A stretch of DNA of 64,000 bases from an archaeon (GCA_038046645.1 JBBSVU010000006.1:10304-74303); one strand, 5' to 3'; counted from the stretch's first letter, positions 45,510 to 64,000 are shown. Made by a program: numbers and translations. The notes: generated by a model from the sequence alone, not told the origin.

Positions 45510-45547
45510 TTCAGGGGAAATCTACTCTTCCAAAGCTAATTTAAATG
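45510..45547 (+). promoter_or_regulatory. Promoter cassette: motif TTCAGGGGAAATCTACTCT + 9 nt + TATA-like AATTTAAAT, 20 nt before ATG 45567
   Basis: One of four copies at identical spacing (also 56523-56558, 58794-58829, 63964-64000). Confidence 0.55.
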
Positions 45548-45566
45548 ATAAAAAGCAACAATAACT

Positions 45567-46355
45567 ATGAATCTTTCTTTGATGTCTATTGAATATTTAA
45601 CTAATTCATTGTTAGATCCAAAAGTAATCACAAGAGAAGTAAAAGTCACTAAAAGAGATGCTTACTTTGATTTTATTGTTTATAGGAATGCAAGACGTTC
45701 GAGAATTCCGTTTGAACTTAATTCATCCATTGCATATCTTTGTGGAGTTATTTTAGGGGACGGTAGCATATCACTAATTCATAGGAAAAAAGTAAATACC
45801 GTTCTACCTTATACCTTTCTAAAAATATTCAACCAATCATTACCATTCTTACTTCAAATTAATCGCCTTTTTAAAGAAAATTTTGGGACTGAAGGCAAAC
45901 TATATAAAAAAAATTATTGTAACTGTTATGTTCTTCAAGTTTCTAATAAAATAGTTTGGTTATATTTTGTTAAACTACTTGGTTTGCCTATTGGTAAAAA
46001 AAGCAACATTAGTATTCCCCGATCTTTATTAAATAAGAATATTTTCAAATATTTTGTTGCAGGTCTAATGGATACTGATGGTTATTTTTCAGAAAACTCC
46101 TTTGGAATAATGCTTTCTGGATCTAATTTGATTTTTTTGGAGTCAATAAAAAAATATTGCAAGTGCTTTTATGGCATTAATTTTAGAAAAACTAATATAA
46201 ATACTTTAGAAGTTAATGGTAAATTATTTCAAAGAGCGCAGATAACTACTTCTGCGAATTCCATGAATACGTTTAAAGGAATAATTCCCCTATGTCATGA
46301 AAAATGGGATGGGCCCGGTGAGGATCGAACTCACGAGTTCCACCGTACCCAGTGA
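45567..46355 (+). CDS. Free-standing LAGLIDADG homing endonuclease (two LAGLIDADG motifs)
   Basis: YLCGVILGDGSI and FVAGLMDTDGYF motifs. The 3' end overlaps an antisense tRNA gene. Confidence 0.7.
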   Translation: MNLSLMSIEYLTNSLLDPKVITREVKVTKRDAYFDFIVYRNARRSRIPFELNSSIAYLCGVILGDGSISLIHRKKVNTVLPYTFLKIFNQSLPFLLQINRLFKENFGTEGKLYKKNYCNCYVLQVSNKIVWLYFVKLLGLPIGKKSNISIPRSLLNKNIFKYFVAGLMDTDGYFSENSFGIMLSGSNLIFLESIKKYCKCFYGINFRKTNINTLEVNGKLFQRAQITTSANSMNTFKGIIPLCHEKWDGPGEDRTHEFHRTQ

Positions 46356-46429
46356 TTAAACTTGTAAGGGTTACGCACCCCCCATTTCTGGAAGATTTGG
46401 CGTCCTAACCACTAGACCACGAGCCCATA
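46312..46429 (-). tRNA. tRNA gene with ~40-nt intervening sequence; isotype unresolved (anticodon region reads CUUCCAG: Gly-UCC or Glu-UUC-like)
   Basis: Good acceptor stem (GGGCTCG/CGGGCCC), D-arm (GTCT-AGTGGTTA-GGAC) and T-arm (GTGAG-TTCGATC-CTCAC). A canonical anticodon stem could not be closed by eye. Confidence 0.5.
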
Positions 46430-46527
46430 TCATTTTCTTCTTTATTCCAAAGAAGAATGATAGTCCATTATATTATACGAATAGCAATATTTAAATATAA
46501 AAGTCTTCTATTACTAATAATATTTAT

Positions 46528-46947
46528 ATGATTGGTGGTGTAAAAATGCAAGGCTTAATGAATGTAAGGGTTGCTGGTCAGCAAATTCAGCTGATTAAGC
46601 TAATGGGCGCGTTCGTGATATTTGCTGCAATACTGATGTTTTTCATGGCTGCAGCCGAGATGTTTGAATATTGGGGCAATATCAAAACAATTGACAGCTG
46701 TTTAGGCATTGCAAAAGGGGATGTAGACTTCTTCAAGGAATGCAAAACAATGGCTTTTGAAGCCTTTGGCGTTTTTGTAAAGCCAGACCAGTCTGCCTTA
46801 AATGGCAAGCAGCTTTATATTGTTTTGATTAAACCTGTAGCATCCTTATTCATCTGGATTGCAATTTTAATCCTGGGATTCATAATATATGGTTTGCCAT
46901 CAAAGGTAATGGTTCCAGTAAAAAAAGACTTTAAAGTAAAAAAATAG
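46528..46947 (+). CDS. Small membrane protein (hypothetical)
   Basis: ORF with transmembrane segments. Downstream hairpin GGGAAG-TATTC-CTTCCC followed by a T-run. Confidence 0.4.
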   Translation: MIGGVKMQGLMNVRVAGQQIQLIKLMGAFVIFAAILMFFMAAAEMFEYWGNIKTIDSCLGIAKGDVDFFKECKTMAFEAFGVFVKPDQSALNGKQLYIVLIKPVASLFIWIAILILGFIIYGLPSKVMVPVKKDFKVKK

Positions 46948-47011
46948 AAAAATAAATTAAAGGGAAGTATTCCTTCCCTCTTTTTCAAATTTTAATTTTT
47001 AGTTGTCGCTT

Positions 47012-48259
47012 TTACTCTGCAGCAATAATTCTTGTTTTATTGCCTTCTTTTACATTGCCTTTCTTAATCCCGACAAGGAAATCCACATTGGATTCTTCGC
47101 AAGTATCCAATAATCTCTTTGTTATGATTCCATCGAAGACAACAGCCTTAATCCCCTTTTCTTTAGTAATGCTTTTTACCAAATCGCGGACATTTACTGT
47201 TTCTATTTCTTCATGTGCTGCATTTAGCAATTTTGCTGTCAGGCTTCCTTTTATTGAAGCCAGGATTGTTGGGAATTTGTCTGGCATTGGAGCTTCAACA
47301 GCAGCTGCTGTTTCAACAACCGGTTCGGCTGCTTGCTCTGTTAACCCTTCTGCTGGTCTTTCAAAGCTCTCAGGCCTTTCAATCCTTTCAGGTCTTGGTT
47401 CATATGATGGCCTGTATTCCGCTTGCTCATATCTTTCCCTTGGATTTTGGGCAGCAGCGAATTTCTTTCTTAAGGCCATTTCTATTTCCTTCCTTGTTAA
47501 TTCCTCTACTTCTTTGCCATCAGGTGCCCTAGCTATATAATCTATTTTTGCGGAACCCATCAATTTTCTGATTATTAAATCTCCGCCCCTGTCCCCATCT
47601 ATGAATGCTATCACTTGTTTCTTCTTTGCTAGTTCAGCAATGCTTGGTGGAATATTTCCGCCCTGCATCCCAACAACATTTTTGATGTTGTGCTTTAGCA
47701 TGTTCAAGACATCAGCCCTTCCTTCAACCAAAATTATTGAATCGCTTTCTTCAATTGAAGGGCCAGCAGGCAGCTTATCTTTGCCATAACTTGTTACTTG
47801 GCTTTTCTTTACTTCTTCCTTTACCCTATCTGCTATTTCAGTAGAGTCAGGCATTTCTTCATGCAATAATTTTTGCAATAAAGCAACAGCCCTTTGTGTA
47901 ATAAATTCTCTCTTCTTTGACCTCATATCCTGTATGCTCACTGCCTTGAATACTGATTTGTAAGGCCCTACCTTATCAACAGTTTCAATTGCTGCTGCAA
48001 GTATGCATGTTTCAACCATGTCCATTGAACTTGGTATGATTAAATCACCAAAAGTATTGCCTTCCTGCAATCTTTGGTTTATTTCAATCCTTCCAATCTT
48101 GCCAGAGTTTTGCAATTCCCTAAGGTCTAAATCCTCGCCAACAAGGCCTTCACTCTGACCAAATACTGCTCCAACAATATCGTGCTTTTCTACTATGCCC
48201 TCAATCCTGAAGTTTACCAAAACTTCATATTTGGCAGTATTAATATATGTTTTTGCCAT
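47012..48259 (-). CDS. dnaG: Archaeal DnaG-like primase (Toprim domain)
   Basis: Toprim motifs ILVEGRADVLNML and IAFIDGDRGGD. N-terminal pattern conserved in archaeal DnaG. Confidence 0.8.
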   Translation of the reverse strand: MAKTYINTAKYEVLVNFRIEGIVEKHDIVGAVFGQSEGLVGEDLDLRELQNSGKIGRIEINQRLQEGNTFGDLIIPSSMDMVETCILAAAIETVDKVGPYKSVFKAVSIQDMRSKKREFITQRAVALLQKLLHEEMPDSTEIADRVKEEVKKSQVTSYGKDKLPAGPSIEESDSIILVEGRADVLNMLKHNIKNVVGMQGGNIPPSIAELAKKKQVIAFIDGDRGGDLIIRKLMGSAKIDYIARAPDGKEVEELTRKEIEMALRKKFAAAQNPRERYEQAEYRPSYEPRPERIERPESFERPAEGLTEQAAEPVVETAAAVEAPMPDKFPTILASIKGSLTAKLLNAAHEEIETVNVRDLVKSITKEKGIKAVVFDGIITKRLLDTCEESNVDFLVGIKKGNVKEGNKTRIIAAE

Positions 48260-48328
48260 AAATTCACCTTTTTTGTATATTATTCAAACTTTACTTCAGA
48301 TAAAAAATTAATTTTACAAAAGTAAAAT

Positions 48329-48592
48329 TTATTCTAGAGAATTAGAGTTTAATTTTAAGGAATTTAACATATCCGCAGTACAATCAAGGCCAATGGCCTT
48401 GTTCTTGCTTGTTTTTCCTTTTAAAATCCTTACTTCACAATTACAAAGCTTCCGCAATTCCTTAACAAGCTCAAGATTTGCCTTGCCCTCTTCAGGCCTT
48501 GATTTCAGATGAATTTTAAATAAATCCTTATCAGAATCAAAGCAAATCCCAAAGCCTTTGCTGTTAGGAATCACTTTAGCGTTAATTATCAT
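48329..48592 (-). CDS. DUF167/YggU-family protein (UPF0235)
   Basis: Size and sequence pattern. Confidence 0.55.
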   Translation of the reverse strand: MIINAKVIPNSKGFGICFDSDKDLFKIHLKSRPEEGKANLELVKELRKLCNCEVRILKGKTSKNKAIGLDCTADMLNSLKLNSNSLE

Positions 48593-48710
48593 AGATATTA
48601 AGAATGATCAATTAAACTCTAAATCTTCCAATAAACATTACAGTGCTAGACACTGATTTATATATGTTTATAATTACTCCCTATTACATTCAATTAAAAA
48701 AGGTATTCTA

Positions 48711-49103
48711 ATGGCCTATTACGACAAAGGAGCTAATGCAGAAAGGGAATTGCTTTATTTATTTGCAGAAAGAGGCTTTTCCGTGGTTAGATCTGCAGGA
48801 TCTGGCAAAATAGACCTTCCAACGCCAGATATAGTTGCAATGAGCCCCCGAAATCAGTATGCTATAGAATGCAAGGCACAAGCTGGTGCCTATTTGAATA
48901 TAAAGAATGAGCAGATGTTTGAGCTTATAAAATGGGCAAAGAATGCCTGCATTGACTTGTGTATTGCATGGAAGATTACAAGCAAGGGTTGGCGTTTCCT
49001 AAAGCCTGAACAATTCAAGCAGAACAAGAAAGGTTTTTTGATCTCAAAAGATGATGCTTTGGAAAACGGCCTTTCGCTGGAAGATTTTATCAGGCAGAAC
49101 TAA
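48711..49103 (+). CDS. hjc: Holliday junction resolvase Hjc
   Basis: GANAERELLYLFAERGFSVVRSAGSG...DIVAM...AIECKA nuclease fold signature. Confidence 0.8.
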   Translation: MAYYDKGANAERELLYLFAERGFSVVRSAGSGKIDLPTPDIVAMSPRNQYAIECKAQAGAYLNIKNEQMFELIKWAKNACIDLCIAWKITSKGWRFLKPEQFKQNKKGFLISKDDALENGLSLEDFIRQN

Positions 49104-49181
49104 CTTTGCAATTTCTCAGATGTGCTTAATCAGCCCTAATTTTTATGTGCTTGGTCTTCCCCCTTTACTTATAAAAATTGA

Positions 49182-50138: not shown

Positions 50139-50224
50139 ATTTTAAATGGAAAGAAAAAATAAACCCAAGAGTTTACTAATTTCAGCAAGTTAAAATAAAA
50201 GCTATTTGTTACTAGTTTTTTATA

Positions 50225-50378
50225 TGAACAAAATAAAATGTATTTGTGGAAAAGCAGCCAATCAAAAAGATTTCAATATCCAAGGTTTTCAAGTAAAAGG
50301 CTGGCAGTGCCCAAGTTGCAAAAGGATTGAATATTCAGATGATATAAATAAAGTTTTGGTTATTCAAAAAGCGTAGAA
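50225..50378 (+). CDS. Small zinc-ribbon protein (51 aa; CICG...CPSC), not in ORF track
   Basis: Hand translation showing a CxC...CxxC pattern. Confidence 0.3.
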
Positions 50379-50486
50379 AATTATTGAATGTACTTTCTTA
50401 GCATCTATTTCTTTTTTAGCAATAGTTTCTTTTCTCTTGCAGACCTATTTTCTCTTTTCTTTTTTAAAGAAAAGAGAAAACGGTAA

Positions 50487-50589
50487 CGAGCCCGCTGGGA
50501 TTCGAACCCAGGACACCCAGATTAAGAGTTTCACCTCATGTTATAATCAAATAACAGAACTGGTGCTCTGCCAACTGAGCTACGGGCCC
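50487..50589 (-). tRNA. tRNA-Lys (CTT) with 30-nt intron at a non-canonical position (within the 5' strand of the anticodon stem, ~30/31)
   Basis: The exons reproduce the tRNA-Lys(TTT) body exactly (GGGCCCGTAGCTCAGTTGGCAGAGCAC...). Anticodon arm CCAG|intron|A-CTCTTAA-TCTGG. Confidence 0.7.
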
Positions 50590-50633
50590 ATTGCACAAAA
50601 TACCTTTTCTGGGTAGTGTTTAAAAATAGAACT

Positions 50634-53900: not shown

Positions 53901-55202
53901 ATGGTTACAAGGCGAAGATTAGGTATTAAACATAACTCATTGCTCACATGGCGTTCGATTGATAAGGAAAGATTAGTTCACAGGCCTAACGTAAAGATAT
54001 GCTCTAAGCAGATTAGTGTTTCTTTTTTGGAATGGCTGAAGCATTTAGAATCTCCTTACACTTTTCTCAGCAGATTAAAAGCAGAAAAGAAAGGCGAGAA
54101 ATATTTAAGGCCAAAATCTGAAAAGCAAAGGAAAGAGGATTTGGTCCAATTGGAAAAATTTTGGTATGTTACCAAAGGAAGGGTATTGCTAGGGAAATTG
54201 TTTGCGGACAAGGATTTGACTGAAGCAGGGATTGCTAAGGAGATGTCTAGGCAGGGCTTTAAGATGAGCCGTGAATTTGTCAGGCAAATAAAGGTTGCAT
54301 GGCAGCTTGAAAGGGATACTCGGTTTACCCGTGCCACAAGAACCCGTAAAAAAGTGCTTGATCTTATTAAAGAACATCCTACTTGGTCTTTTAAAAAAAT
54401 TGGTGCAGAGGCAGGAATTGGCACTGAGTATGCTTCTCATATTGTCCAGTCAGCCGGAGTAAAGAAACCCCCTGCAGGAAGGGTTTCCCCAGAAGAGCGT
54501 GCTGCCAGAGAAAACTTTTTGTACTCTGCTGGCATTGAGTTTTCTGGGCCTGTTCGCACGCCTTCAATTAAGATGAAGGCGCATGCAATTCACATGTATA
54601 CTAAGTATCGTGATAATGATGGCAACAATTTTGTTGTTCGGCATTATAACCCTTTTTTGAAGTTGACTTCTGGCAAGGTTGATACATCTATTAGGATTTT
54701 GGATAAATATGGTGTGGACTGGAGAGATGATGATAAGGGTTTATGGCGATTGATTAGTAACAGTACTTCTACGCTTAGGGCTAGATTGGGATTGTTTGAA
54801 TTGCTTGGAGTCTCTCCTGAATTACATTATTTGCTAATCTGTAACTTTCGTAATGGAATTAGGCATTTTAACCAGGAGGGTTTTGCTTCAATGCGCGAAG
54901 CCGTTGTTTCCCATAATATTCCTGTGCTGAAAAATTTTGTTAGAGGAACTTGTAATAAAATGCTGAATAGAAGTGCAAGACCCCCTAATGCAGATTTTTT
55001 TGAAGCTGCTGAAAACGCCTTTGTTACTGTAATGAGCGAATGCAAGCATCCTGAAAAACACCCTGCGGCTTTTCTTACATTAGTTTCTCATGCTATAGGT
55101 GATGCCTTAAATAAAGAGGCAATACATTTTGCTAGGACAAGCTCAATAGAAGATTTTACTGATATTCCTTCTGATGGAACAAGGCCAAGGAGAAAATTAT
55201 AA
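53901..55202 (+). CDS. HTH-containing protein with C-terminal sigma-70 region-2-like segment; paralogue of 22858..24051
   Basis: HTH-like GIAKEMSRQGFKMSREFVRQIK and IGAEAGIGTEYASHIVQ. C-terminal DFFEAAENAFVTVMSECKHPEKHPAAFLTLVSHAIGDAL and a shared IPSDG motif. Lys/Arg-rich N-terminus. Confidence 0.45.
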   Translation: MVTRRRLGIKHNSLLTWRSIDKERLVHRPNVKICSKQISVSFLEWLKHLESPYTFLSRLKAEKKGEKYLRPKSEKQRKEDLVQLEKFWYVTKGRVLLGKLFADKDLTEAGIAKEMSRQGFKMSREFVRQIKVAWQLERDTRFTRATRTRKKVLDLIKEHPTWSFKKIGAEAGIGTEYASHIVQSAGVKKPPAGRVSPEERAARENFLYSAGIEFSGPVRTPSIKMKAHAIHMYTKYRDNDGNNFVVRHYNPFLKLTSGKVDTSIRILDKYGVDWRDDDKGLWRLISNSTSTLRARLGLFELLGVSPELHYLLICNFRNGIRHFNQEGFASMREAVVSHNIPVLKNFVRGTCNKMLNRSARPPNADFFEAAENAFVTVMSECKHPEKHPAAFLTLVSHAIGDALNKEAIHFARTSSIEDFTDIPSDGTRPRRKL

Positions 55203-55610
55203 AGCAATTCCCTTAAAATTTTTATAAAAAATTTAGTGAAAAGTGAGGACGGAATAGGGAAATTTTTTTTCACTGAGAACTCACTTCCATAAGCTTTAAA
55301 AACATCTTTTCCAGATTTTCTTATATGGAATTTGTTTTTTCAAAAAAAGAAATTTCTTTCAACAGAGAACTGTCTTTTCTTGACAGGTTTGTGTTGAAGT
55401 TCACCAAATTACTTGAAAAGCATAAAATTGACTATGTGATTATTTCAGGTTATATTGCAATTTTGTTTGTAGGGAAAAGTTAAAATAAAATTTACCTTAA
55501 TAATCTATTTTTGTAGACTAAACAAATAGTATCCCACTTGCCTTATACCCCCGTTTTTATTTATTATGTATTCTATTCTATTTTTATTTATTCTGCATTT
55601 TATTTAACAT

Positions 55611-56501
55611 ATGCCTGTATTAAAAAAACCCGCACCAAGGCCAAGAAGGCCTTTTGCTGAAATAACCGAATCAAGAAAAGGCCCTCTGAATGTAGCGCTT
55701 GCTGATTTTTATGACGAACATGGCAGATGGGTAAAAAGAAAATCAAAGGTAACGGTAGGGGGCAGATTAGTAGAGAGGCGCAAGCACACTGTTGATAAGG
55801 AAGGGCCTAAATATATACAAGATGTTTATTCTGACAAAGGTAAGCTTATTGGTTCTATCATAACCCAAAGAGAACCTGCTTTTGATTTAAATAGAGGGGA
55901 AGACAGGTTTCATCTTGAGGTTAAGGATAAAAGGCGTGGTCAGATTAGAACAATAGATGCAATACACAAAGGAAAATTTGAAGATGTAAATATTGCCCAT
56001 TTAAATGAATGGCTTTCAGCCGAAATATTAGATATGCCTATATTTGATAGGCCTATTTTTGATAAGCCTGATTTTGCAAGAAATCTTGCAACTGCATTAA
56101 CTAGGGCTCCATATTTTTTCTTTGAAAACTTTTCAGATGCAAGAATGGAAGAATTTGCAAGGTATGTTGCTGAACATAAATACGAATTTATGTCCGGCAT
56201 AAGCAAAAATCCCGACGGTTTTTGGAATTCTTTGCATAAACATAAATATGCTTTTGCAAAAAACCTTGAGCGTTTCTTGTTGGAAGGCCATATAGAAAGG
56301 GATAACGCCCTGATGATTGCATTTAAATTAAGTGGCGTAAATCTGGCTGGTGAAGGAAGGTTAGCGCCTGCAATAAGGCGCAGTATGCGGCAAGAGGAAA
56401 TTGATAAACAAGCAAGAGCCAATGCTGAACAAAGAAGATTATTGCAAGAAGCAGAAAGGGCTGTTGTAATAAAACCGCCATCCAAGCAACCAAAAAAGTA
56501 A
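55611..56501 (+). CDS. Hypothetical protein (Pro/Arg-rich N-terminus MPVLKKPAPRPRRP; FDRPIFDKPDF repeat)
   Basis: ORF with coding-like composition. No known domain recognised. Confidence 0.45.
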   Translation: MPVLKKPAPRPRRPFAEITESRKGPLNVALADFYDEHGRWVKRKSKVTVGGRLVERRKHTVDKEGPKYIQDVYSDKGKLIGSIITQREPAFDLNRGEDRFHLEVKDKRRGQIRTIDAIHKGKFEDVNIAHLNEWLSAEILDMPIFDRPIFDKPDFARNLATALTRAPYFFFENFSDARMEEFARYVAEHKYEFMSGISKNPDGFWNSLHKHKYAFAKNLERFLLEGHIERDNALMIAFKLSGVNLAGEGRLAPAIRRSMRQEEIDKQARANAEQRRLLQEAERAVVIKPPSKQPKK

Positions 56502-56522
56502 CCTTATTTTTATTTGCAAACT

Positions 56523-56558
56523 TTCACAGGAAATCTACTCTCTCCATTTGTTTATAAA
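56523..56558 (+). promoter_or_regulatory. Promoter cassette copy: TTCACAGGAAATCTACTCT + 9 nt + TTTATAAA, 24 nt before ATG 56583
   Basis: Same motif and spacing as 45510, 58794 and 63964. Confidence 0.55.
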
Positions 56559-56582: not shown

Positions 56583-57680
56583 ATGAATCCTTTAAGAATA
56601 ATTTCTGAAGCTGTTGAAAACATAAAGCAGAATGAGGCAAAGAGAGTAGATGCAGTAAAAGAAATTCTTGCAAAAAAATATTCGAAAATTGATTTTGATA
56701 CAGGTTCAAAAAATTGCTTGCTTGAAGATAAATTGGTTTTTCCAATTGCTGAACATACTTTGAATTCAAGGATTGCGGCGGTTGATTCAGGCTTTGTTGG
56801 AAAAAACCTTTATTCTTTTGACCTGCTTTTCATAAGGACAGCAGGTGTACTTTTTACTTATAAAAACAACATTCTTGAGAGGGCAGCATATTACCCAGAA
56901 ATGTTTTCCTTCCCAAAGCCAATTTTCATCAATGGAGCTTTACAATTAGATGAAAGCTCGGTTTCAAGAAGCCTTTACCGCCTATTTGAAGAAATTGGCT
57001 TAGCCAAAGAAATAATTGAAAAGGAAAAGCCGGAATACTGTTTAATCGACGGTTCAATTATTCCACAGCATGCAGACAAGCCAAGAAAGGATTCTAAGGT
57101 AACAAATTCATATTCAAAGGTTATTTCCCTATTTGAAAGTTTATACAAAGCAGCAGAAGATAATGGCACAATTTTAATCGGATGTATTGAAGATTCAAGA
57201 GGTTCAAGATTCAGGGAAATAATCCAGCAGAATTTTGTTTCTGAACTGAATAAACCAAGGTTAGATGATTGCTATGATTCTGTTTTGTTGGATTCCTTGC
57301 TAAAAGAAAAGGAAAGAACCTCTGCATTCCATTATACAAACAATATCGAAATGCACCCTATACTTTCAGATTTTAATGAAAAATATTCAAAAGCCGTGAA
57401 TGTTTGTTACTTAAAACCTTCAAAATATGATCGTGCATTAAGGATTGAATTTTTGTCAAATGAAAGGAATGAAAAACTAACTGAATTTGTGGATAAAATT
57501 TCACCCGTAATCTGCCAATTGTCATCACTGCACAGGGAATATGCATTTCCCTCCCCTTTAATAGAAGCAGATTTAAGGGCAGGTTTAAATCCAGACGAAA
57601 TAGAATTTGTTTTCAACAAAATAGCTGACAAATTAGGCAATAATTTTAGGCTAATGCGCAGGGATTCAAGGCCGTTTTAA
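56583..57680 (+). CDS. NurA-like nuclease (RNase H-like fold) - tentative
   Basis: RIAAVDSGFVG near the N-terminus and CLIDGSIIPQ mid-protein resemble the NurA catalytic Asp motifs. The real start is probably ATG 56583 (MNPLRIIS), downstream of the TATA box. Confidence 0.45.
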   Translation: MNPLRIISEAVENIKQNEAKRVDAVKEILAKKYSKIDFDTGSKNCLLEDKLVFPIAEHTLNSRIAAVDSGFVGKNLYSFDLLFIRTAGVLFTYKNNILERAAYYPEMFSFPKPIFINGALQLDESSVSRSLYRLFEEIGLAKEIIEKEKPEYCLIDGSIIPQHADKPRKDSKVTNSYSKVISLFESLYKAAEDNGTILIGCIEDSRGSRFREIIQQNFVSELNKPRLDDCYDSVLLDSLLKEKERTSAFHYTNNIEMHPILSDFNEKYSKAVNVCYLKPSKYDRALRIEFLSNERNEKLTEFVDKISPVICQLSSLHREYAFPSPLIEADLRAGLNPDEIEFVFNKIADKLGNNFRLMRRDSRPF

Positions 57681-57824: not shown

Positions 57825-58715
57825 CTAGGTAAAATATGCTTTCTTAGGGAATTGTATTGAGCTTGCTGTTCCTGCTACCAAACGCCCGTTACCTGTCTTT
57901 GGGTCAATTACTACAAAAAAGCATTTTGCTATCTCAGCACATAAATTAGGGGTGGCACTTTCTTTTGCTAGGTTGCTTAGTTCTGCTTTAGCTTTCAATA
58001 TCTTATCTCTGTATTCTTTGAACTGCTTGCGTAATTCTTCATAATTGGGAATGTTCTTTCTGCGTGTTGCATAATAATCTAATACTTGTTTAGTTCCTCC
58101 TTCAGATAAATCCTCAACAGGCAACACAGCGCAAGTCATTACCTGTTCTGGATTTGTTTTTACTAATTTATAAGATTCAATGGTTGGAATGCCCATATTT
58201 CGCAATATTTTAAAATTTTCATTTTCAAGGTGAAGCCATATTGTTCCATGCCTATGGCTTACAAAATAATTTTCATCAAAATATCTTTTTCTTATTGCAG
58301 CAGGCACATTATCAGGCAATTCCCCAACTCCAATAATCCCTAAATTCATCTTTCCTTCTAACTCAGAAAGCTGCCTTCTGACCCAATTATCAGGATATCT
58401 GCAGGCTTTAAGTGCAAACCATTTTCTTTCACCAGTTTTATGGTCATCAAATTGCCCTGCCCTAAAAACAAGTATCTTGCCACCAACCCCTAAAAGCCTT
58501 GGGTCTTGCTTGCTTATTGCAACAGTTTTGATGCCTCTTGGAAAAATATATCTAAATCTTTCCATAACAAGTGTTTGCATGCTATTTCTGCTGACTTCTG
58601 TTACTTTCAGTTCAGCACTTCTTTCAATCATATCCTTTCTTCTTAAGAGTTTTGACAATTTTCTTAATCCTTTGTGAAATCTGTTCTTTAGTCCCAGCAA
58701 ACTTGGCTTAATCAT
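57825..58715 (-). CDS. Hypothetical protein (basic N-terminus; HRHGTIWLHLENEN segment), divergent from HerA-like gene
   Basis: ORF only. Confidence 0.45.
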   Translation of the reverse strand: MIKPSLLGLKNRFHKGLRKLSKLLRRKDMIERSAELKVTEVSRNSMQTLVMERFRYIFPRGIKTVAISKQDPRLLGVGGKILVFRAGQFDDHKTGERKWFALKACRYPDNWVRRQLSELEGKMNLGIIGVGELPDNVPAAIRKRYFDENYFVSHRHGTIWLHLENENFKILRNMGIPTIESYKLVKTNPEQVMTCAVLPVEDLSEGGTKQVLDYYATRRKNIPNYEELRKQFKEYRDKILKAKAELSNLAKESATPNLCAEIAKCFFVVIDPKTGNGRLVAGTASSIQFPKKAYFT

Positions 58716-58793: not shown

Positions 58794-58829
58794 TTCAGGG
58801 GAAATCTACTCTTTGCAATGCTTTATAAA
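58794..58829 (+). promoter_or_regulatory. Promoter cassette copy: TTCAGGGGAAATCTACTCT + 9 nt + TTTATAAA, 24 nt before ATG 58853 (divergent region shared with 57825..58715)
   Basis: Same motif and spacing as the other copies. Confidence 0.55.
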
Positions 58830-58852
58830 CAACCTTTTGGCTTAAGTAATTC

Positions 58853-61800
58853 ATGGTTATAAATAATTCACAGACTGTTGGCACAGTAATTTCAGCAATA
58901 AATTCCCCAAACCCTAGTTCTGCAGATTTTGTTGTTACCTCTGGCTTAATACACAGAGGGCAATTTGTTGAAATAGAAAATCCATCAGGCAATTTTATTG
59001 CCTTGGTAATGGACGTATATAAAACAAACAAATATTTTGAAAGGGCTGACTCAGTAAAAGAATTTGAATCAAAAGGCCAAGCATTATTTGAACAGTTTCC
59101 TGTACACGAATGGGAATACCTTGTCGCAAATACAAAACCTTTAGGTGTGTACTCTGGCGACAATTTCTACAGGCCAAGCTTTCCTCCATCCCCAGGATCA
59201 AAGGTAAGGATTGCTGATTCTGAAAAATTAAAAAAATTCTTCCATTTTGATGAATCTGGCTTGCATTTAGGCAATGTTGAATACCATGATTTATCTGTTA
59301 AACTGAATCTGTCAAGGATGTTGAAGAAACACCTAGCAATTTTAGCTATGTCTGGTTCGGGAAAATGCGGTGATTACAATCTTGAAATATTGTTGAGTAA
59401 TGGCAGGACAATTAAGCTTGGTGAGCTTGTTGACAACCATTTGAAAAATAAAAAAGTAATTGAAGATAATGTCGAGGTCTGTGATGTTAATCCAAATAAC
59501 TTAAAAGTAATTTCCATAGGTAAAGATAATCAACCAATAACCTCTGAAATTAAGGCGTTTATGAGGAGGAAGGCCCCAAAAAAGATGTTTAGAATCAGGA
59601 CAAGAACAGGCAAACAATTATTGATTACTCCAGAGCACCCAATACCGATTCTAAATGAACAAATAAATTGGATTCAAGCTAAAAATCTTGCTAAAAAAGA
59701 TTACCTAATTACGACAATGCCCCTAATAGAGGGATCAGAACAAATAATTGATTTTGTCCAATTATGGAAGAATTCTTCTAAAGTCAGAGTTGATGATGAG
59801 CTTATTCTGGCTGAATTAAAATCTAAACTTTTTGAGAAATATTCAATAAAAGAGTTTTCAAAAATCATTAATATGACCCCCCAAAAACTACAATATTTAT
59901 TATCGCATTCAGGAGTTCCTTTGGATTATCTAAAATTAATTTGTAACAAATTAGGCGTGGATTTTTTGGAGATATGTTCAAAAATAAAAACATTAAAAGT
60001 ACTGTCTTCCAGAATCCCTGCAAAGGTTATTGTTGATGAAAAATTTGCAAGATTTATGGCTTATTTGTTAGCAGAAGGACATAATAGTGGTCAAACTATT
60101 ATTTTTACTAATAGCTCTACTTTAATTAGGGAAGATTTTAGCAATCTAACAAAATTATTTGGTGTTACTGCAAGCATTAATAGAAAGAGGGATATTGAAC
60201 TTAGAATTTATAACAAACTTTTAGCAGACAGTTTATTTAAGTTAGGTTTTACTGATTCTAGTTGGACCAAATATATTCCAGAGGAGATTCTATTAAGTAA
60301 AAAATCAGTTTTAGCAGCTTTTTTGGGTGCATTTATTGATTGTGATGGTTATGTTAGTTCTAAGAAATCACATATCGAAATAACGCTTGCCAGTAAACAG
60401 ATGTTAGACAACATAGAACAGATAGTTTTGCGATTTAAGTTAAATCCAATAAGAAAGATAAAAACAGTTAAAGGCAAACAATATGGCAGGTTATTTTTAG
60501 GCGGTGCGGATTATTTAACTATCCTAAATAATGAATTAACCCTTTTAATAGACTATAAAGCAAAAGCGCTTAAGGAATGTTCCTTAAAAAAACCAAATTC
60601 AAACATTAGGGTAATCCCCAACATTAAACATACTTTAGCTTTCCTACAAAATAAGCTTAATTTAACCCAAAGCCAATTTGTTAATATTGCTAATTATTTG
60701 TCGCGAGAGGAAAGGCATGATGATCCAACACCCACTTCGTTAAAATCTTTACTGAATGAATTTGAACATAATTATGAAAGTATTCAGAGTACCCTAGCTC
60801 AAACAAAAAAATTATTTTATGCTATGCCAAATTTAACTGAAGAAGATGCAAAAAAAATACTTGTAGATGCCTACTCTAAATATGATTTTAACAAAATTGC
60901 TAAAAATACAAATATTTCAAGCACTACCGCAAGAAGAGTAGTAAGAGGTTTAACCGAACCAAACCTAAATACCTTTTGCCTTGCTAAAAATGCCTTGGCT
61001 TTAGAAAATGAATCTGATTTAGGCATAGATGTAATTACTAATTTAGACTTTAAGCAACTAGCCAGTCAAATTAGGGTTTTGTGTAAAAATATTGGTTGTG
61101 AAATACAGGAGTTATGCAACAGAAGTGGGTTTAACGATCAATATTTGGATGGTTATTCTTACAATCCCTTAAATACAATAAGGTATTCAAATATCTACAA
61201 GGTTTTGTATAATCTCTTTATTATTTCATTAGATAAAGAAAAGCAATTGCCTGAAATTAGAGAGAAACTTGATTTTTTGCACACACTTATTTCTGATAGC
61301 TTATTTTTTGATGCAATTGAATCTGTTGAAGAGGTTGATTATGACAAAGAATATGTTTATGACTTATGTGTAAAAGAGCACAATTTTGTTGCAAATAATC
61401 TAATCATTCACAATAGTTTTTCAACAGCTTGTTTAATTGAAGAGCTCCTTAACCGGCAAAAAGAAAAAGGCAGGATTGCAATTGTTGTTTTAGACCCGCA
61501 TGGTGAATATTCCAGCTTTGCCCAGCCTGTGAAAGATGGCAAGTATGAGGATTTTTCTGACCGCACGAAAATCATTAAAGCCCAAAACATCAGAATAGCT
61601 GTGCCAAAAATGAGCGTTCATATGCTTTCTGGAATAATTCCTGGATTAACAATTCCGCAGAAAAGGGATTTAAGCAGGATTTTATCAAGCCTTAAAGAAG
61701 ATATGTATCGCGGCTTAGGGCCTTTTGATTGGTCACATGTAAAAGATGCAATTTTGAAAGATGACAATATAAAGCAAAATTCAAAATTCCCTTTAATGGG

Positions 61801-62449
61801 CTGGATTGATGATCTAATGTCCTATAACTTATTTGCGAGGACAGATATGCCTGCTGTTTCTGAATTAATTAAACCAGGAACATTAACAATACTTGATTTT
61901 TCAGACATAGTGAACATGAAAAAGAAGCAGATGATTGTAAGTTATTTTGCAAACAAGCTGTTTGATGAAAGAAAATCAAATGTAATTCCCCCGACACTTT
62001 TAATTGTGGAGGAAGCTCATCAATGGTGTCCGCAGATGGCATCAGAAGAATCAGCTATTTCCCGTTCCATTCTGCGAACAATTGCAAGGGAAGGAAGAAA
62101 ATTTGGAATGTCCCTTTGCATAATTTCTCAAAGGCCTGTTCAGCTTGATACCACAACACTTTCACAATGTTCCACTCATTTAATTTTGCGCATTACAAAC
62201 CCAAACGATTTGAAACACATAGCAGAATCATCAGAAGGAATTGACCAAAGAAGTTTTGGAATAATAAATTCCTTGCAGGTTGGGGAAGGATTGCTTGTTG
62301 GGGAAGCAACAGGCTATCCATTATTTTTTAAGGTAAGGTATAGGAAATCAATGCCAAGCAAGCATGAAATTTCCCTAGAAGATGCAGCTTTGAAATTTGA
62401 AAGCTCTGCAGATAAAACAAAGGCTGAAACCGAGGGATTTTTGGAATAA
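58853..62449 (+). CDS. HerA-like FtsK/HerA-superfamily ATPase interrupted by a 683-aa intein in the Walker A motif (extein ~515 aa)
   Basis: N-terminal HAS-barrel-like region. Walker A GSGK|C...HN|S restores GSGKS after splicing. DPHGEY, LLIVEEAHQW and ISQRPVQLD motifs typical of HerA. Confidence 0.75.
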   Translation: MVINNSQTVGTVISAINSPNPSSADFVVTSGLIHRGQFVEIENPSGNFIALVMDVYKTNKYFERADSVKEFESKGQALFEQFPVHEWEYLVANTKPLGVYSGDNFYRPSFPPSPGSKVRIADSEKLKKFFHFDESGLHLGNVEYHDLSVKLNLSRMLKKHLAILAMSGSGKCGDYNLEILLSNGRTIKLGELVDNHLKNKKVIEDNVEVCDVNPNNLKVISIGKDNQPITSEIKAFMRRKAPKKMFRIRTRTGKQLLITPEHPIPILNEQINWIQAKNLAKKDYLITTMPLIEGSEQIIDFVQLWKNSSKVRVDDELILAELKSKLFEKYSIKEFSKIINMTPQKLQYLLSHSGVPLDYLKLICNKLGVDFLEICSKIKTLKVLSSRIPAKVIVDEKFARFMAYLLAEGHNSGQTIIFTNSSTLIREDFSNLTKLFGVTASINRKRDIELRIYNKLLADSLFKLGFTDSSWTKYIPEEILLSKKSVLAAFLGAFIDCDGYVSSKKSHIEITLASKQMLDNIEQIVLRFKLNPIRKIKTVKGKQYGRLFLGGADYLTILNNELTLLIDYKAKALKECSLKKPNSNIRVIPNIKHTLAFLQNKLNLTQSQFVNIANYLSREERHDDPTPTSLKSLLNEFEHNYESIQSTLAQTKKLFYAMPNLTEEDAKKILVDAYSKYDFNKIAKNTNISSTTARRVVRGLTEPNLNTFCLAKNALALENESDLGIDVITNLDFKQLASQIRVLCKNIGCEIQELCNRSGFNDQYLDGYSYNPLNTIRYSNIYKVLYNLFIISLDKEKQLPEIREKLDFLHTLISDSLFFDAIESVEEVDYDKEYVYDLCVKEHNFVANNLIIHNSFSTACLIEELLNRQKEKGRIAIVVLDPHGEYSSFAQPVKDGKYEDFSDRTKIIKAQNIRIAVPKMSVHMLSGIIPGLTIPQKRDLSRILSSLKEDMYRGLGPFDWSHVKDAILKDDNIKQNSKFPLMGWIDDLMSYNLFARTDMPAVSELIKPGTLTILDFSDIVNMKKKQMIVSYFANKLFDERKSNVIPPTLLIVEEAHQWCPQMASEESAISRSILRTIAREGRKFGMSLCIISQRPVQLDTTTLSQCSTHLILRITNPNDLKHIAESSEGIDQRSFGIINSLQVGEGLLVGEATGYPLFFKVRYRKSMPSKHEISLEDAALKFESSADKTKAETEGFLE
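59366..61414 (+). mobile_element. Intein with LAGLIDADG homing-endonuclease domain (Cys1 ... His-Asn, +1 Ser)
   Basis: Starts CGDYNLEILLSNGRTIKLGELV (block A). LAGLIDADG blocks FMAYLLAEGHNSG and LAAFLGAFIDCDGYV. Ends FVANNLIIHN followed by S. Confidence 0.8.
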
Positions 62450-62465
62450 TCATCAACTTGCCTAT

Positions 62466-63101
62466 TTATTTCCTTAATTCTTTAATAATCTGGTCCCTGG
62501 CCTGAATGCATGCGTTTTTGCATTCTTCATTTAATGGTGATGGAAGATTTCTGCTATCAACAATCTCCTTATCAGTTATTTTGCCAATTGCTGAAACAGC
62601 CCTAGTTATTCCTTCTTGGTATTCTGCTTCACTTTTACTTCTTAGCCCAAGCAAGTGTTTAAAACTCTCAATTGATCCAGTGCGGCTTCCAGTAATTGGT
62701 ACGGCATATTGCACTACAAAGTGGAGGCGCAAGCGTTCACCAGTGTGTTTGTTGCCATTTCTTATTGATTCAATGACTCTTTCTTTTGTTCCTAAATATA
62801 TTGGCCTTACTGCATCAACAATTGCATTTTCTGCATACAGCTCTAAAGCATCGCCATACCTTGCTTTTAAATCTTTCCAGAACCTGGCATAAATTGTTTC
62901 TAAACGTCTTAATTCACCTGTTCCCTGCTCTGGGGGAAGAGCACCTTCTTTAATCCAAACAAGCTGTTTTGCTAATTCTTCACTGCATTCTCTTTTCAAT
63001 TCCTTTAATGGCGGGCGCCGTATTGGAATAGCTTCATGGCTTTCAATAGACCTTCTTCGTGCCATATTCCAAGGAACTGGTTTTGCTGGTGCTTTTGGCA
63101 T
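62466..63101 (-). CDS. Hypothetical protein (Pro/Lys/Arg-rich N-terminus MPKAPAKPVPW..RRRS)
   Basis: ORF only. Confidence 0.45.
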   Translation of the reverse strand: MPKAPAKPVPWNMARRRSIESHEAIPIRRPPLKELKRECSEELAKQLVWIKEGALPPEQGTGELRRLETIYARFWKDLKARYGDALELYAENAIVDAVRPIYLGTKERVIESIRNGNKHTGERLRLHFVVQYAVPITGSRTGSIESFKHLLGLRSKSEAEYQEGITRAVSAIGKITDKEIVDSRNLPSPLNEECKNACIQARDQIIKELRK

Positions 63102-63181
63102 AATATTTACTTCTTTAGAACTGTTTATATTTGTTATTATGTAGTAGAATGTGTTTCCTTTAGTTTATAACAAAAACTATC

Positions 63182-63901
63182 TTGATTTATTTTTTAGGAT
63201 TGTTTTTAATTGTTTTATGTGCTTATTTTTGTATGCCTGTGAAGTTAAGAACCAGAACAATTAGATTTAGGGAACGGCAGGGCCAAGATACTTATTATTA
63301 TGAATTAATTAAGGAAAGAATAAAGCGCCGTTGGAGATATCGTATCCGTAAAGGATTAATGAAGGCAGCAGAATGCCATAGTGCAATATTTAACAGGTTG
63401 AAAAAATTAGGAATCCCAATATCTACTTTATATGATGTAAGAACCGGCGGGATGCAATATACTGCCAAGGATATGTCAAAAGGCGGCTATTTAAGGATAA
63501 TTAATGCATATGAAGCAACAATTGCAGCAAGAAAGCGTACAAAAAAATGGGCTGATGCATCTGCCTACTGGAAAGACAACCCTATCTCGAATATGCGCAG
63601 CATTGTTTCAGGCATTACTAGGGATTTGGCAATAATGCACAAAAATGGCTTGTTTATTTCAGGGCGAAGAGTTGTTCTTGAACCTTGGCTTGTTTATTTT
63701 CGCGGAAAAGAAAATGAGAAGCAAAGAATTGCATCAAGGGCAATCACTGATGTCGGGTCAATACTTGAAACATCCAAAATGAGTATTAATGATATTTATG
63801 ATGCATATATGGATAATATTGAAGACCTACATATTAGTTTTCCTGAAGAATATCAAAGCCTTATTGATAAAACATATGCAAAATATTTTACTTCGGCCTA
63901 A
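63182..63901 (+). CDS. Hypothetical protein (N-terminal hydrophobic segment then Arg-rich region)
   Basis: ORF only. Confidence 0.4.
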   Translation: MIYFLGLFLIVLCAYFCMPVKLRTRTIRFRERQGQDTYYYELIKERIKRRWRYRIRKGLMKAAECHSAIFNRLKKLGIPISTLYDVRTGGMQYTAKDMSKGGYLRIINAYEATIAARKRTKKWADASAYWKDNPISNMRSIVSGITRDLAIMHKNGLFISGRRVVLEPWLVYFRGKENEKQRIASRAITDVGSILETSKMSINDIYDAYMDNIEDLHISFPEEYQSLIDKTYAKYFTSA

Positions 63902-63963
63902 CCATCTAATTCAATGAAAAGGTCTTAGCTTAGCATTCAGGGGAAATGCCCCTAGAGGGAAAG

Positions 63964-64000
63964 TTCAGGGGAAATCTACTCTCCTTCAATTTCTTTAAAT
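63964..64000 (+). promoter_or_regulatory. Promoter cassette copy: TTCAGGGGAAATCTACTCT + 9 nt + TCTTTAAAT at window end (target gene outside window); truncated copy TTCAGGGGAAATGCCCC at 63936-63952
   Basis: Same motif and spacing as the other copies. Confidence 0.5.

What the first reader, a model, noticed from the sequence alone, without database searches (positions are those of the whole stretch)
45510..64000. Fixed-geometry promoter cassette TTCAGGGGAAATCTACTCT-N9-TATA repeated four times, upstream of a free LAGLIDADG gene, the NurA-like gene, the intein-bearing HerA-like gene and a gene beyond the window
- Copies lie at 45510-45528, 56523-56541 (variant TTCACAGGAAATCTACTCT), 58794-58812 and 63964-63982. 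A truncated copy is at 63936-63952.
- In every case exactly 9 nt separate the motif from an A/T TATA element, with the ATG 20-25 nt beyond.
- The motif therefore occupies about -45 to -65. That is upstream of the BRE, the position of an activator or repressor site.
- The sequence is GC-rich in an AT-rich genome and partly palindromic (GGGGAAAT...), consistent with protein recognition.
- It links otherwise unrelated accessory genes into a putative regulon. The 58794 copy lies in a divergent region and could control both 57825-58715 and the HerA-like gene.
- A degenerate relative (AATTCAG...TTTAAAAAA) precedes 53901.
Basis: seen in the sequence. Interest (0 to 1): 0.75.

Follow-up and report, generated by a model that had tools for sequence, protein, structure and literature searches.

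The report
Shared promoter box of DNA-repair genes
A 19-base box sits at a fixed distance in front of the promoters of DNA recombination and replication genes, and of selfish nuclease genes, in an uncultivated groundwater archaeon and its relatives; it probably marks a gene set under common control not described before, and it resembles the sites bound by replication-initiator (Orc1/Cdc6) proteins.

Summary
TTCAGGGGAAATCTACTCT occurs five times in the window (0.03 expected). Every copy is followed by a 9-nt spacer and a TATA box, and flanks beyond that are at background identity.

The genes served are related: RadA, NurA, HerA and a compact PolB-fold protein, plus a free LAGLIDADG endonuclease.

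The box recurs in at least seven DPANN Iainarchaeota/Diapherotrites genomes, giving about 41 non-redundant sites, at least 35 with the TATA geometry. There it precedes RadA, NurA, HerA, MCM, a Hel308-like helicase, the PolB-like gene, many LAGLIDADG genes and TnpB genes. More distant relatives carry lineage-specific variants at the same promoters.

Best reading: an upstream box abutting BRE/TATA, bound by a dedicated regulator of a recombination/replication gene set that selfish nucleases have also acquired. Its 5' half matches mini-ORB elements, so an Orc1/Cdc6 paralogue is the leading candidate (about 0.35). This rests on sequence resemblance alone. No binding or expression data exist, and no literature on this box was found.

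The parts
17424..17442 (-). The TATA box TTTATAAA is at 17407-17414.
16417..17373 (-). RadA (Rad51/RecA-family recombinase), the gene served by the 17424 box.
   Evidence: Pfam Rad51, E = 4.6e-92
45510..45528 (+). Full box upstream of the free-standing LAGLIDADG endonuclease gene. It starts directly after the stop codon of the upstream ORF. TATA-like AATTTAAAT is at 45538-45546.
45567..46355 (+). Free-standing LAGLIDADG homing-endonuclease gene. Both LAGLIDADG motifs keep their acidic residues.
56523..56541 (+). Variant box TTCACAGGAAATCTACTCT upstream of NurA. TATA is at 56551-56558.
56583..57680 (+). NurA nuclease (365 aa from the ATG at 56583).
58794..58812 (+). Full box upstream of HerA. 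TATA is at 58822-58829.
58853..62449 (+). HerA helicase interrupted by an intein that carries a LAGLIDADG domain.
63936..63947 (+). Half box (TTCAGGGGAAAT only), 28 nt upstream of the full box. The same half-plus-full tandem is kept at the orthologous promoter in five lineages.
63964..63982 (+). Full box. TATA-like TCTTTAAAT is at 63992-64000. The gene served starts about 23 nt beyond the window end and encodes a 504-aa compact protein with the fold of a family-B DNA polymerase.
55325..55480 (+). Truncated remnant (52 codons) of a 202-aa gene that carries a 2-mismatch box in the close relative. In the window the box has decayed.

Best explanation
Tier 1 (confidence about 0.8). The 19-bp box is a cis-regulatory element of archaeal promoters. 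It lies in one orientation with its 3' end 8-11 nt (9 nt in the window) upstream of the TATA box, so it abuts the BRE at roughly -58 to -40. It is the binding site of one dedicated sequence-specific factor. That factor co-regulates a small recombination/replication gene set: RadA, NurA, HerA and a PolB-fold protein in this window; MCM, a Hel308-like helicase and a few small unknown proteins in relatives. Selfish nuclease genes (free LAGLIDADG homing endonucleases and TnpB) have repeatedly acquired the same box. Their expression would then coincide with the host's recombination machinery, which they need in order to spread.

The strict spacing, the single orientation and the position upstream of BRE point to direct contact with TFB/TBP. 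By the archaeal positional rule this means activation by recruitment. That direction is inferred, at about 55:45 over repression.

Tier 2 (confidence about 0.35). The factor is an Orc1/Cdc6-family paralogue. The 5' 12 nt of the box form a mini-ORB-like core that the winged-helix domain would read. The lineage-variable pyrimidine-rich 3' extension, which faces the BRE, would be read by the AAA+/ISM side. This parallels Orc1-2 as DNA-damage regulator in Sulfolobales and DnaA acting as a transcription factor in bacteria.

What is shown: sequence, geometry, conservation, gene content and resemblance to ORB elements. What is inferred: protein binding, the identity of the factor, the direction of regulation and the inducing signal.
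For: - Non-random occurrence with exact geometry; flanks at background identity.
- A genome scan gave 21 hits in seven Iainarchaeota/Diapherotrites assemblies, 11 of them in one assembly, against 20 singletons in unrelated bacteria, as expected by chance. The metagenome scan added more.
- About 41 non-redundant sites were found; 35 have a TATA box 7-10 nt downstream and a few more have one at 11 nt.
- The box is all-or-none. In 280 kb of related DNA only three more sites with 1-2 mismatches turned up (NurA, the 202-aa gene and TnpB), all in promoter geometry.
- Downstream genes: RadA in 3 lineages, HerA in 3, NurA in 3, the PolB-like gene in 3 (with the near-exact box), MCM, a Hel308-like helicase, an 87-aa protein in 3, LAGLIDADG genes in at least 8 families, and TnpB in 3.
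- The 504-aa protein has a family-B polymerase fold: Foldseek E = 1e-11, all top 50 hits archaeal PolB, model pLDDT 86.5. Weak sequence matches fall on polymerase motifs A and C.
- An exact box persists at RadA at 69% RadA identity.
- In relatives with NurA 47-49% and PolB-like 28-30% identical, the same promoters carry lineage-specific variants in the same geometry. Examples: CGCACCGGAAACCCGCCCC twice in L129, TTCAGGGGAAATCCGCCCTC in L135, and a GGCACGG type at both the HerA-operon and PolB-like promoters in L132. The box therefore changes in concert within a genome.
- The half-plus-full tandem (offset 27-29 nt) is kept at the PolB-like promoter in five lineages.
- The box has decayed where the gene became a pseudogene.
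- ORB resemblance: the S. solfataricus Orc1-1 mORB is GATTTTCAGATGAAACG (PMC3089459). The euryarchaeal ORB consensus is GTTCCAGTGGAAAC-AAA----GGGGG (PMC1868953). TTCAGTGGAAAT occurs in L006, L008 and L022.
- Orc1-2 acts as a transcription regulator in Saccharolobus (PMC9738581).
- The close relative has two Orc1/Cdc6 paralogues, one with a divergent winged-helix domain.
Against: - There are no binding, transcription-start or expression data of any kind.
- Whole genomes were not available, so membership of the gene set is a sample. Copies with changes outside positions 5-6 were not captured by the collection scans.
- Several sites precede genes with no link to DNA metabolism (PIN, a 56-aa ORF, a 209-aa ORF). 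A few lack a TATA box at the right distance (L012, L051/L006, L042).
- RPA, the Rad50-like gene and the DnaG-like primase lack the box.
- Against the Orc1 tier: the 3' extension is pyrimidine-rich, not a G-string. The core is 1 nt shorter than the euryarchaeal ORB consensus. Neither orc1/cdc6 gene that was seen has the box or ORB repeats beside it. The Sulfolobales DDRE hexamer ANTTTC is absent from both strands.
- The core promoters look strong (TTTATAAA, A-rich BRE region), which would suit a repressor as well as an activator.
Confidence: 0.75

Rival explanations
1. The element and the gene set are the same, but the box is bound by an ordinary archaeal transcription factor (a winged-helix/MarR, TrmB or Lrp-type protein, or an unknown DPANN-specific one) rather than an Orc1/Cdc6 paralogue. 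The ORB resemblance would then be coincidental.
For: - The window encodes TrmB-family and double-wHTH regulators and many basic proteins without known relatives next to the recombination genes.
- The TTC-N4-GAA partial dyad could suit a dimeric wHTH protein.
- The 3' extension does not look like a G-string.
- No box lies at the orc1 genes that were seen.
Against: - A 19-bp, strongly asymmetric, almost invariant site with a separable 12-nt half-site fits a monomeric two-module binder better than a symmetric dimer.
- The core matches published Orc1 sites at 10 specified positions.
- No candidate factor is conserved next to the genes concerned.
Confidence: 0.4
2. The box is a core-promoter class element: an extended upstream element read by an alternative TFB/TBP paralogue. 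It would define a promoter class, much as an alternative sigma factor does, rather than a regulator-binding site.
For: - Rigid spacing to the TATA box and a single orientation.
Against: - TFB reads about 6 nt of BRE directly next to the TATA box. The box lies beyond that and is 19 nt long.
- A normal A-rich BRE region is present between box and TATA, as in promoters of the window without the box.
- A half box 28 nt further upstream is not expected for a core-promoter element.
- Archaea have no sigma factors, and the sigma matches are below threshold.
Confidence: 0.1
3. The box belongs to mobile DNA. It would be the promoter or target site of LAGLIDADG/intein or IS200-605 (TnpB) elements, and it sits at host genes only because those elements inserted there.
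For: - Roughly a third of the non-redundant sites precede free LAGLIDADG genes or TnpB genes. HerA, MCM and Hel308 carry LAGLIDADG inteins.
- At 19 bp and asymmetric, the box has the size of a homing site.
Against: - RadA, NurA and the PolB-like gene have no intein or endonuclease gene yet keep the box in several lineages. An intein-free HerA (515 aa, L067) keeps it too.
- Flanks are not repeated.
- The position is fixed relative to the TATA box, not to any insertion point.
- The free LAGLIDADG proteins are only 20-32% identical to each other, so they are independent lineages that each acquired the box.
- Lineage-specific variants occur at host promoters.
Confidence: 0.05
4. The boxes are Orc1/Cdc6 sites whose role is in replication control, such as initiator titration or dormant origins, and not in transcription.
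For: Resemblance to mini-ORB elements. Scattered mini-ORBs of unknown role exist in Pyrococcus (PMC1904270).
Against: - The exact 8-11 nt spacing and orientation relative to TATA at about 37 of 41 sites would be unexplained.
- No AT-rich unwinding element or inverted ORB pairs are present.
- The sites are tied to one functional class of genes.
Confidence: 0.03

Closest known systems
Orc1-2 and its DDRE element in Sulfolobales (Saccharolobus islandicus); PMC9738581, PMC12490963
   Same: A dedicated DNA-metabolism regulon in an archaeon is marked by a short asymmetric promoter element. In Sulfolobales the binder is a non-initiator Orc1/Cdc6 paralogue whose winged-helix and ISM modules both contribute to specificity.
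   Different: - The DDRE is a hexamer (ANTTTC) that is absent from this box.
- The Sulfolobales regulon holds ups, ced, tfb3 and cell-division genes, not radA/herA/nurA. Repair genes are not induced there (PMC2246294, abstract listed).
- Here the site is 19 bp, nearly invariant, at a fixed distance from the TATA box, and found in a DPANN phylum.
- Binding by an Orc1 protein is untested here.
Origin recognition boxes (ORB and mini-ORB) of archaeal replication origins
   Same: The 5' 12 nt (TTCAG-NN-GAAAY) share skeleton and spacing with the S. solfataricus Orc1-1 mORB GATTTTCAGATGAAACG. They differ by a 1-nt deletion and one substitution from the euryarchaeal mini-ORB GTTCCAGTGGAAAC. Total length (19-20 bp) and the core-plus-extension layout match a full ORB, and short and long versions coexist as mini-ORB and ORB do.
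   Different: - There is no G-string; the extension is pyrimidine-rich and lineage-variable.
- The sites are single and dispersed, not clustered around an AT-rich unwinding element or next to orc1/cdc6.
- They are locked to TATA boxes.
   Same: The site lies immediately upstream of BRE, is orientation- and distance-dependent, and would act by recruiting TBP or TFB.
   Different: Those sites are shorter or palindromic, more degenerate, and belong to other protein families. None defines a recombination/replication regulon conserved across a phylum.
Bacterial DNA-damage regulons with fixed promoter motifs (PafBC/RecA-NDp in mycobacteria, RDRM/DdrO in Deinococcus, the LexA SOS box) and DnaA boxes in promoters; cited from my own knowledge
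   Same: One motif ties recombination and repair genes into a regulon. RecA-NDp sits at a fixed distance from the core promoter. DnaA is a replication initiator that also acts as a transcription factor.
   Different: A different domain of life, different transcription machinery and unrelated proteins. This is analogy only.

Membership tests
Transcription-factor binding element of an archaeal promoter (upstream of BRE/TATA) | Fixed position and orientation relative to the TATA box | tested here: met
   9-nt spacer in all 5 window copies. 35 of about 41 non-redundant sites have a TATA box 7-10 nt downstream, and a few more have one at 11 nt.
Transcription-factor binding element of an archaeal promoter (upstream of BRE/TATA) | Conserved at orthologous promoters while the flanks diverge (phylogenetic footprint) | tested here: met
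   RadA, NurA, HerA and PolB-like promoters keep the box in several lineages. Variants keep the same geometry at NurA identity of 47-49%. Flanks are at background identity.
Transcription-factor binding element of an archaeal promoter (upstream of BRE/TATA) | A restricted, functionally coherent gene set rather than general occurrence | tested here: met
   5 of about 60 genes in the window carry it. The host genes are RadA, NurA, HerA, PolB-fold, MCM and Hel308-like. No whole genome was available, so this is a sample.
Transcription-factor binding element of an archaeal promoter (upstream of BRE/TATA) | A protein binds the site and changes transcription | not testable with these tools
   Needs EMSA, footprinting, reporter assays or transcriptomics.
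ORB / mini-ORB (Orc1/Cdc6 recognition element) | Core sequence of the TTCC-N3-GGAA / TTCAG-NN-GAAAC type | tested here: inconclusive
   The core matches the Sso mORB skeleton without a gap. It is 1 nt shorter than the euryarchaeal consensus. This is a comparison with published sequences only.
ORB / mini-ORB (Orc1/Cdc6 recognition element) | G-string extension 3' of the core | tested here: not met
   The extension is CTACTCT, CCGCCCC or TCGCTCC, all pyrimidine-rich on that strand.
ORB / mini-ORB (Orc1/Cdc6 recognition element) | Repeats clustered around an AT-rich unwinding element next to an orc1/cdc6 gene | tested here: not met
   The sites are single and dispersed. The intergenic regions beside the two orc1/cdc6 genes seen (L024, L070) have no box repeats.
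ORB / mini-ORB (Orc1/Cdc6 recognition element) | Bound by an Orc1/Cdc6 protein | not testable with these tools
   Two paralogues exist in the close relative. Binding is unknown.
Sulfolobales Orc1-2 / DDRE regulon | The ANTTTC hexamer in the promoters | tested here: not met
   Reading both strands of the box shows no ANTTTC. The reverse strand has GATTTC.
Sulfolobales Orc1-2 / DDRE regulon | Regulon made of ups/ced/tfb3-type damage-response genes | tested here: not met
   The genes here are recombination and replication enzymes and selfish nucleases.
Mobile repeat (MITE, IS end or longer repeated cassette) | Sequence similarity extending beyond the motif; terminal repeats | tested here: not met
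   Flank identity is 0.27-0.29 against 0.274 for random 60-mers.
LAGLIDADG homing site | The site coincides with the insertion point of an endonuclease gene or intein | tested here: not met
   The box occurs at RadA, NurA, PolB-like and an intein-free HerA. It is always positioned relative to the TATA box.

The most novel reading that the evidence does not exclude
In Iainarchaeota (DPANN), a paralogue of the replication initiator Orc1/Cdc6 has become the master transcription factor of the homologous-recombination and replication genes. It would read ORB-derived boxes docked at a fixed distance from BRE/TATA. Box and protein would have co-evolved across the phylum. Homing endonucleases and TnpB nucleases would have plugged into the same switch, so that they cut DNA only when the host's repair machinery is expressed. 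That would make initiator-derived control of DNA-metabolism genes a general archaeal theme rather than a peculiarity of Sulfolobales.
Probability: 0.33. Interest if true: 0.75.

Novelty: new variant of a known kind. Interest (0 to 1): 0.62.

Why it matters
- Archaea are generally held to lack an SOS-like regulon for recombination genes. In the studied models radA, herA and nurA are little regulated, and the only known master regulator (Orc1-2) controls other genes.
- Here radA, nurA, herA, mcm, a Hel308-like helicase and a PolB-fold gene share one nearly invariant promoter box across a phylum of uncultivated, genome-reduced archaea for which no regulator is known.
- The box gives a concrete, testable handle: one 19-bp probe and two or three candidate proteins.
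- It is a marker for finding further genome-maintenance genes, such as the compact PolB-fold family and the 87-aa protein.
- It is a clear case of selfish nucleases acquiring the promoter box of the host's recombination genes.
- If the binder is an Orc1/Cdc6 protein, the box links replication initiation with control of repair genes.

Tried and rejected
- **LAGLIDADG-derived transcription factor (WhiA-like) as binder.** Rejected. The free LAGLIDADG proteins are only 20-32% identical, so they are not orthologues, and they keep the acidic residues of both motifs.
- **RNA-guided recognition (a TnpB/TldR-like factor reading TTCA as TAM plus a guide).** Unlikely. The only variable positions (5-6) would fall in the TAM-proximal seed, and the extension varies between lineages.
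- **DDRE hexamer.** Absent from both strands.
- **Degenerate copy before 53901.** Not supported.
- **Purine/pyrimidine hairpins upstream of many boxes (window 17450-17482) as part of the element.** The same hairpins follow tRNA genes without any box (40946-40992, 50448-50480). They look like terminators, and three window copies lack them.
- **Hairpin AGGGGAAATGCCCCT at 63938-63952.** Not conserved in relatives; the half box is.
- **Replication origin or box next to the orc1/cdc6 genes in L024 and L070.** None seen.
- **87-aa box-associated protein.** My guess was a PC4-like ssDNA binder. Pfam, NCBIfam and a PDB profile search gave nothing.
- **Viral contigs.** Only three copies of one chance-like hit without a TATA box.
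- **Rfam.** No known RNA family lies next to any box.
- **Literature.** No report of this motif or of promoter motifs in Iainarchaeota.
- **First look-up for the gene beyond the window end.** It failed because of the start-codon choice and was solved through the neighbouring gene.


Full report
**1. The observation**

TTCAGGGGAAATCTACTCT occurs five times in the window at up to 3 mismatches, against 0.03 expected. The four listed copies are at 45510, 56523 (TTCACAGG...), 58794 and 63964. The fifth, exact, copy at 17424-17442 on the minus strand was missed.

Each copy is followed by exactly 9 nt and then TTTATAAA, AATTTAAAT or TCTTTAAAT. The start codon lies 20-33 nt after the TATA. The truncated copy at 63936 is identical over the first 12 nt only.

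Outside the box and the spacer/TATA, the copies are no more alike than random 60-mers of the window (0.27-0.29 against 0.274). They are therefore not parts of a longer repeat. The supposed degenerate copy before 53901 shares only TTCAG, at the wrong distance.

**2. The genes served**

- The missed copy precedes RadA (Pfam Rad51, E = 4.6e-92).
- The other copies precede a free LAGLIDADG endonuclease, NurA, and HerA carrying a LAGLIDADG intein.
- A contig of the same population extends past the window end (L047). It shows that the last copy precedes a 504-aa protein with no Pfam match.

That 504-aa protein belongs to a small family of 15 homologues. Weak sequence matches fall on family-B polymerase motifs A and C. 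An AlphaFold model (pLDDT 86.5, pTM 0.85) matches only archaeal family-B DNA polymerases (Foldseek E = 1e-11). The aspartates of motifs A and C are not among the invariant columns, so it may not be an active polymerase.

The host genes are therefore a coherent recombination/replication set, not unrelated accessory genes.

**3. Origin and distribution**

Identical proteins occur in Hainich groundwater assemblies.

The pattern TTCANNGGAAATCTACTCT was scanned over one genome per species. It gave 41 hits:

- 21 fall in seven Iainarchaeota/Diapherotrites (DPANN) assemblies, 11 of them in PEXL01.
- 20 are singletons in unrelated bacteria. By my own calculation about 70 chance hits are expected for 17 specified bases in 596 Gb.

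The metagenome scan added related populations. Viral contigs gave only a chance-like hit.

After removing duplicates there are about 41 sites. Of these, 35 have a TATA box 7-10 nt downstream, and a few more have one at 11 nt.

The box is all-or-none. A scan of 280 kb of related DNA for 1-4 mismatches found only three additional sites with 1-2 mismatches. They precede NurA, a 202-aa gene and TnpB, and all are in promoter geometry.

**4. The gene set across relatives**

| Gene downstream of the box | Lineages or families |
|---|---|
| RadA | 3 lineages, including one with only 69% RadA identity and an exact box |
| HerA | 3 lineages, one without an intein |
| NurA | 3 lineages |
| PolB-fold gene | 3 lineages with the near-exact box; variants in more distant lineages (section 5) |
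| MCM with intein | 1 |
| Hel308-like helicase with intein | 1 |
| Conserved 87-aa protein | 3 lineages |
| 202-aa gene | 1 |
| Free LAGLIDADG genes | at least 8 families, mutually 20-32% identical where five were aligned |
| TnpB genes | 3 |
| PIN and unknown ORFs | a few |

In the window the 202-aa gene survives only as a 52-codon remnant at 55325-55480, and its box has decayed.

RPA, the Rad50-like gene and the DnaG-like primase have no box.

**5. Deeper conservation**

Homologues of the PolB-fold protein led to more distant genomes. There NurA is 47-49% identical and the PolB-like protein 28-30% identical. The gene order NurA-HerA-PolB-like-RpoK-S17e, with Rad50 on the opposite strand, is kept.

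At the same promoters and in the same geometry these genomes carry lineage-specific versions of the box:

| Locus | Box variant | Promoter(s) |
|---|---|---|
| L129 | CGCACCGGAAACCCGCCCC | NurA and PolB-like, identical over 20 nt |
| L130 | TTCACCGGAACCTCGCTCC and ATTACCGGAAACCCGGTCTC | NurA and PolB-like |
| L135 | TTCAGGGGAAATCCGCCCTC | PolB-like |
| L134 | TTCACCGGCGGAATGGTCCC | PolB-like |
| L132 | GGCACGG type | HerA operon and PolB-like |

The core CA-NN-GGAAA is the most stable part, and the 3' extension stays pyrimidine-rich but changes. Within a genome the sites are nearly identical, while between lineages they differ. This is what is expected if one trans-acting factor co-evolves with its sites.

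The PolB-like promoter keeps a half box 27-29 nt upstream of the full box in five lineages.

**6. Mechanism**

The archaeal TATA box is centred about 26 nt upstream of the transcription start (established knowledge). On that basis the box spans about -58 to -40.

The 9-nt spacer carries the A-rich BRE-like positions that are also seen in promoters of the window without the box. The box therefore abuts the BRE.

The position upstream of BRE, the single orientation and the rigid spacing are the signature of a factor that contacts TFB/TBP. In archaea that position usually means activation (inference). Repression by crowding TFB is not excluded, because the TATA boxes are near consensus.

The signal (DNA damage, replication or cell cycle) is unknown.

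**7. Identity of the factor**

The box is asymmetric, 19 bp long and nearly invariant, and it has a separable 12-nt module. Its 5' half has the skeleton TTCAG-NN-GAAAY.

- This is the skeleton of the S. solfataricus Orc1-1 mini-ORB GATTTTCAGATGAAACG (PMC3089459).
- It is one deletion and one substitution away from the euryarchaeal mini-ORB GTTCCAGTGGAAAC (PMC1868953). The version TTCAGTGGAAAT occurs in three loci.
- Pyrococcus mini-ORBs keep TTCC and GAA invariant (PMC1904270).
- An Orc1 paralogue is a proven DNA-damage regulator in Saccharolobus (PMC9738581).
- The close relative encodes two Orc1/Cdc6 proteins, one with a weak winged-helix match.

Against this reading: there is no G-string, the spacing differs from the euryarchaeal consensus, no box or ORB cluster lies beside those orc1 genes, and no DDRE hexamer is present.

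I therefore treat Orc1/Cdc6 as the leading candidate at about 0.35 and do not file the box as an ORB.

**8. Rivals**

- An ordinary transcription factor as binder (about 0.4 for the identity question).
- A core-promoter class element read by an alternative TFB (about 0.1).
- A feature of mobile elements or a homing site (about 0.05). This is contradicted by intein-free and endonuclease-free host promoters and by the unrelated flanks.
- Replication-only Orc1 sites (about 0.03). This is contradicted by the lock to the TATA box.

**9. Selfish nucleases**

Independent LAGLIDADG lineages and TnpB genes carry the box in several genomes. Both kinds of element depend on the host's homologous recombination to spread (established for homing; reported for TnpB, from my own knowledge). 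Acquiring the recombination regulon's box is therefore a plausible adaptation. This is inference.

**10. Novelty and verdict**

No paper in the library mentions this motif or promoter motifs of Iainarchaeota.

The kind of element, an upstream regulator site, is known. The specific box, its regulon (recombination and replication genes, which are not known to form a regulon in studied archaea), its ORB-like make-up and its use by selfish nucleases are new. I rate it a new variant of a known kind, with interest 0.62.

All functional statements rest on comparative sequence evidence. No binding or expression data exist.

Noticed in passing
L027:3960-5060 (minus strand): A tRNA gene appears split. 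Its 5' part (GGGCCCTTAGATCAGCTGGTAGATCGCTCTTTG) ends exactly where a box-TATA-LAGLIDADG cassette begins. A complete intron-containing tRNA-Ala(GGC) follows the endonuclease gene. The matching T-arm and acceptor 3' part (…ACGGGTTCAAATCCCGTAGGGCCCA) lies about 960 nt downstream. ARAGORN with long introns allowed does not join the halves.
   Followed up: partly
L008:~160-240, L022:~2405-2485, L025:~4485-4540, L107: A conserved short upstream ORF (M-x-x-S-x-LCRFV..., 18-26 codons, with its own GAGGTG ribosome-binding site) lies between the box promoter and two unrelated genes, the 87-aa protein and the Hel308-like helicase, in at least three genomes. It may be a regulatory leader peptide.
   Followed up: partly
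L023, L072, L035, L082 (first ~200 nt after the box promoter): Box promoters drive a conserved non-coding stretch (…TTAGGAATNCAAGGCTGAA…). In L023 and L072 it continues as a conserved segment of about 150 nt without an ORF. In L035 and L082 it precedes TnpB, and L035 also has a 47-nt tandem duplication. There is no Rfam match.
   Followed up: partly
L047:6323-7837 (starts ~23 nt past the window end); homologues P0001-P0015: A lineage-restricted family of compact proteins (460-530 aa) with the fold of family-B DNA polymerases and an invariant CxCC cluster. The aspartates of motifs A and C are not conserved. The family is always encoded next to NurA-HerA and RpoK-S17e, with the Rad50 gene opposite.
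   Followed up: partly
window 53901-55202, 55611-56501, 57825-58715, 62466-63101, 63182-63901: Arginine/lysine-rich ORFs of 210-430 aa with no Pfam or NCBIfam match are interspersed among the recombination genes. The close relative has different ORFs at these places, and 55611-56501 sits beside the truncated 202-aa gene.
   Followed up: partly
window 22858-24051 (minus strand): A 397-aa basic protein has an N-terminal HTH and sub-threshold similarity to sigma-70 region 2/ECF sigma factors (Pfam E = 0.0018; NCBIfam 21.7 bits against a cut-off of 42.9). This is odd for an archaeon.
   Followed up: no
window 17450-17482, 40946-40992, 50448-50480: Perfect 12-15-bp hairpins with a pyrimidine 5' arm and a purine 3' arm (TTTTCTTTTTCTCTT/AAGAGAAAAAGAAAA). 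Two lie directly after tRNA genes and one lies 7 nt upstream of the RadA box. Similar hairpins precede many boxes in the relative. They are probably bidirectional terminators.
   Followed up: partly
window 40871-41028 and 50487-50589 (minus strand): Rfam finds two tRNA genes here that the default ARAGORN run missed, presumably because of long introns (158 and 103 nt overall).
   Followed up: no
L002-L005 (Logan contigs) versus window 17440: Four independent short-read assemblies end 67 nt upstream of the RadA start, which is inside the box. This fits assembly breaks at the repeated 27-nt box plus TCCAAAGC shared with the 45510 copy.
   Followed up: no
L012:2727-2745: One box copy has no TATA box at the right distance and lies about 230 nt upstream of a TATA-binding-protein gene. 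Its status is unclear.
   Followed up: no
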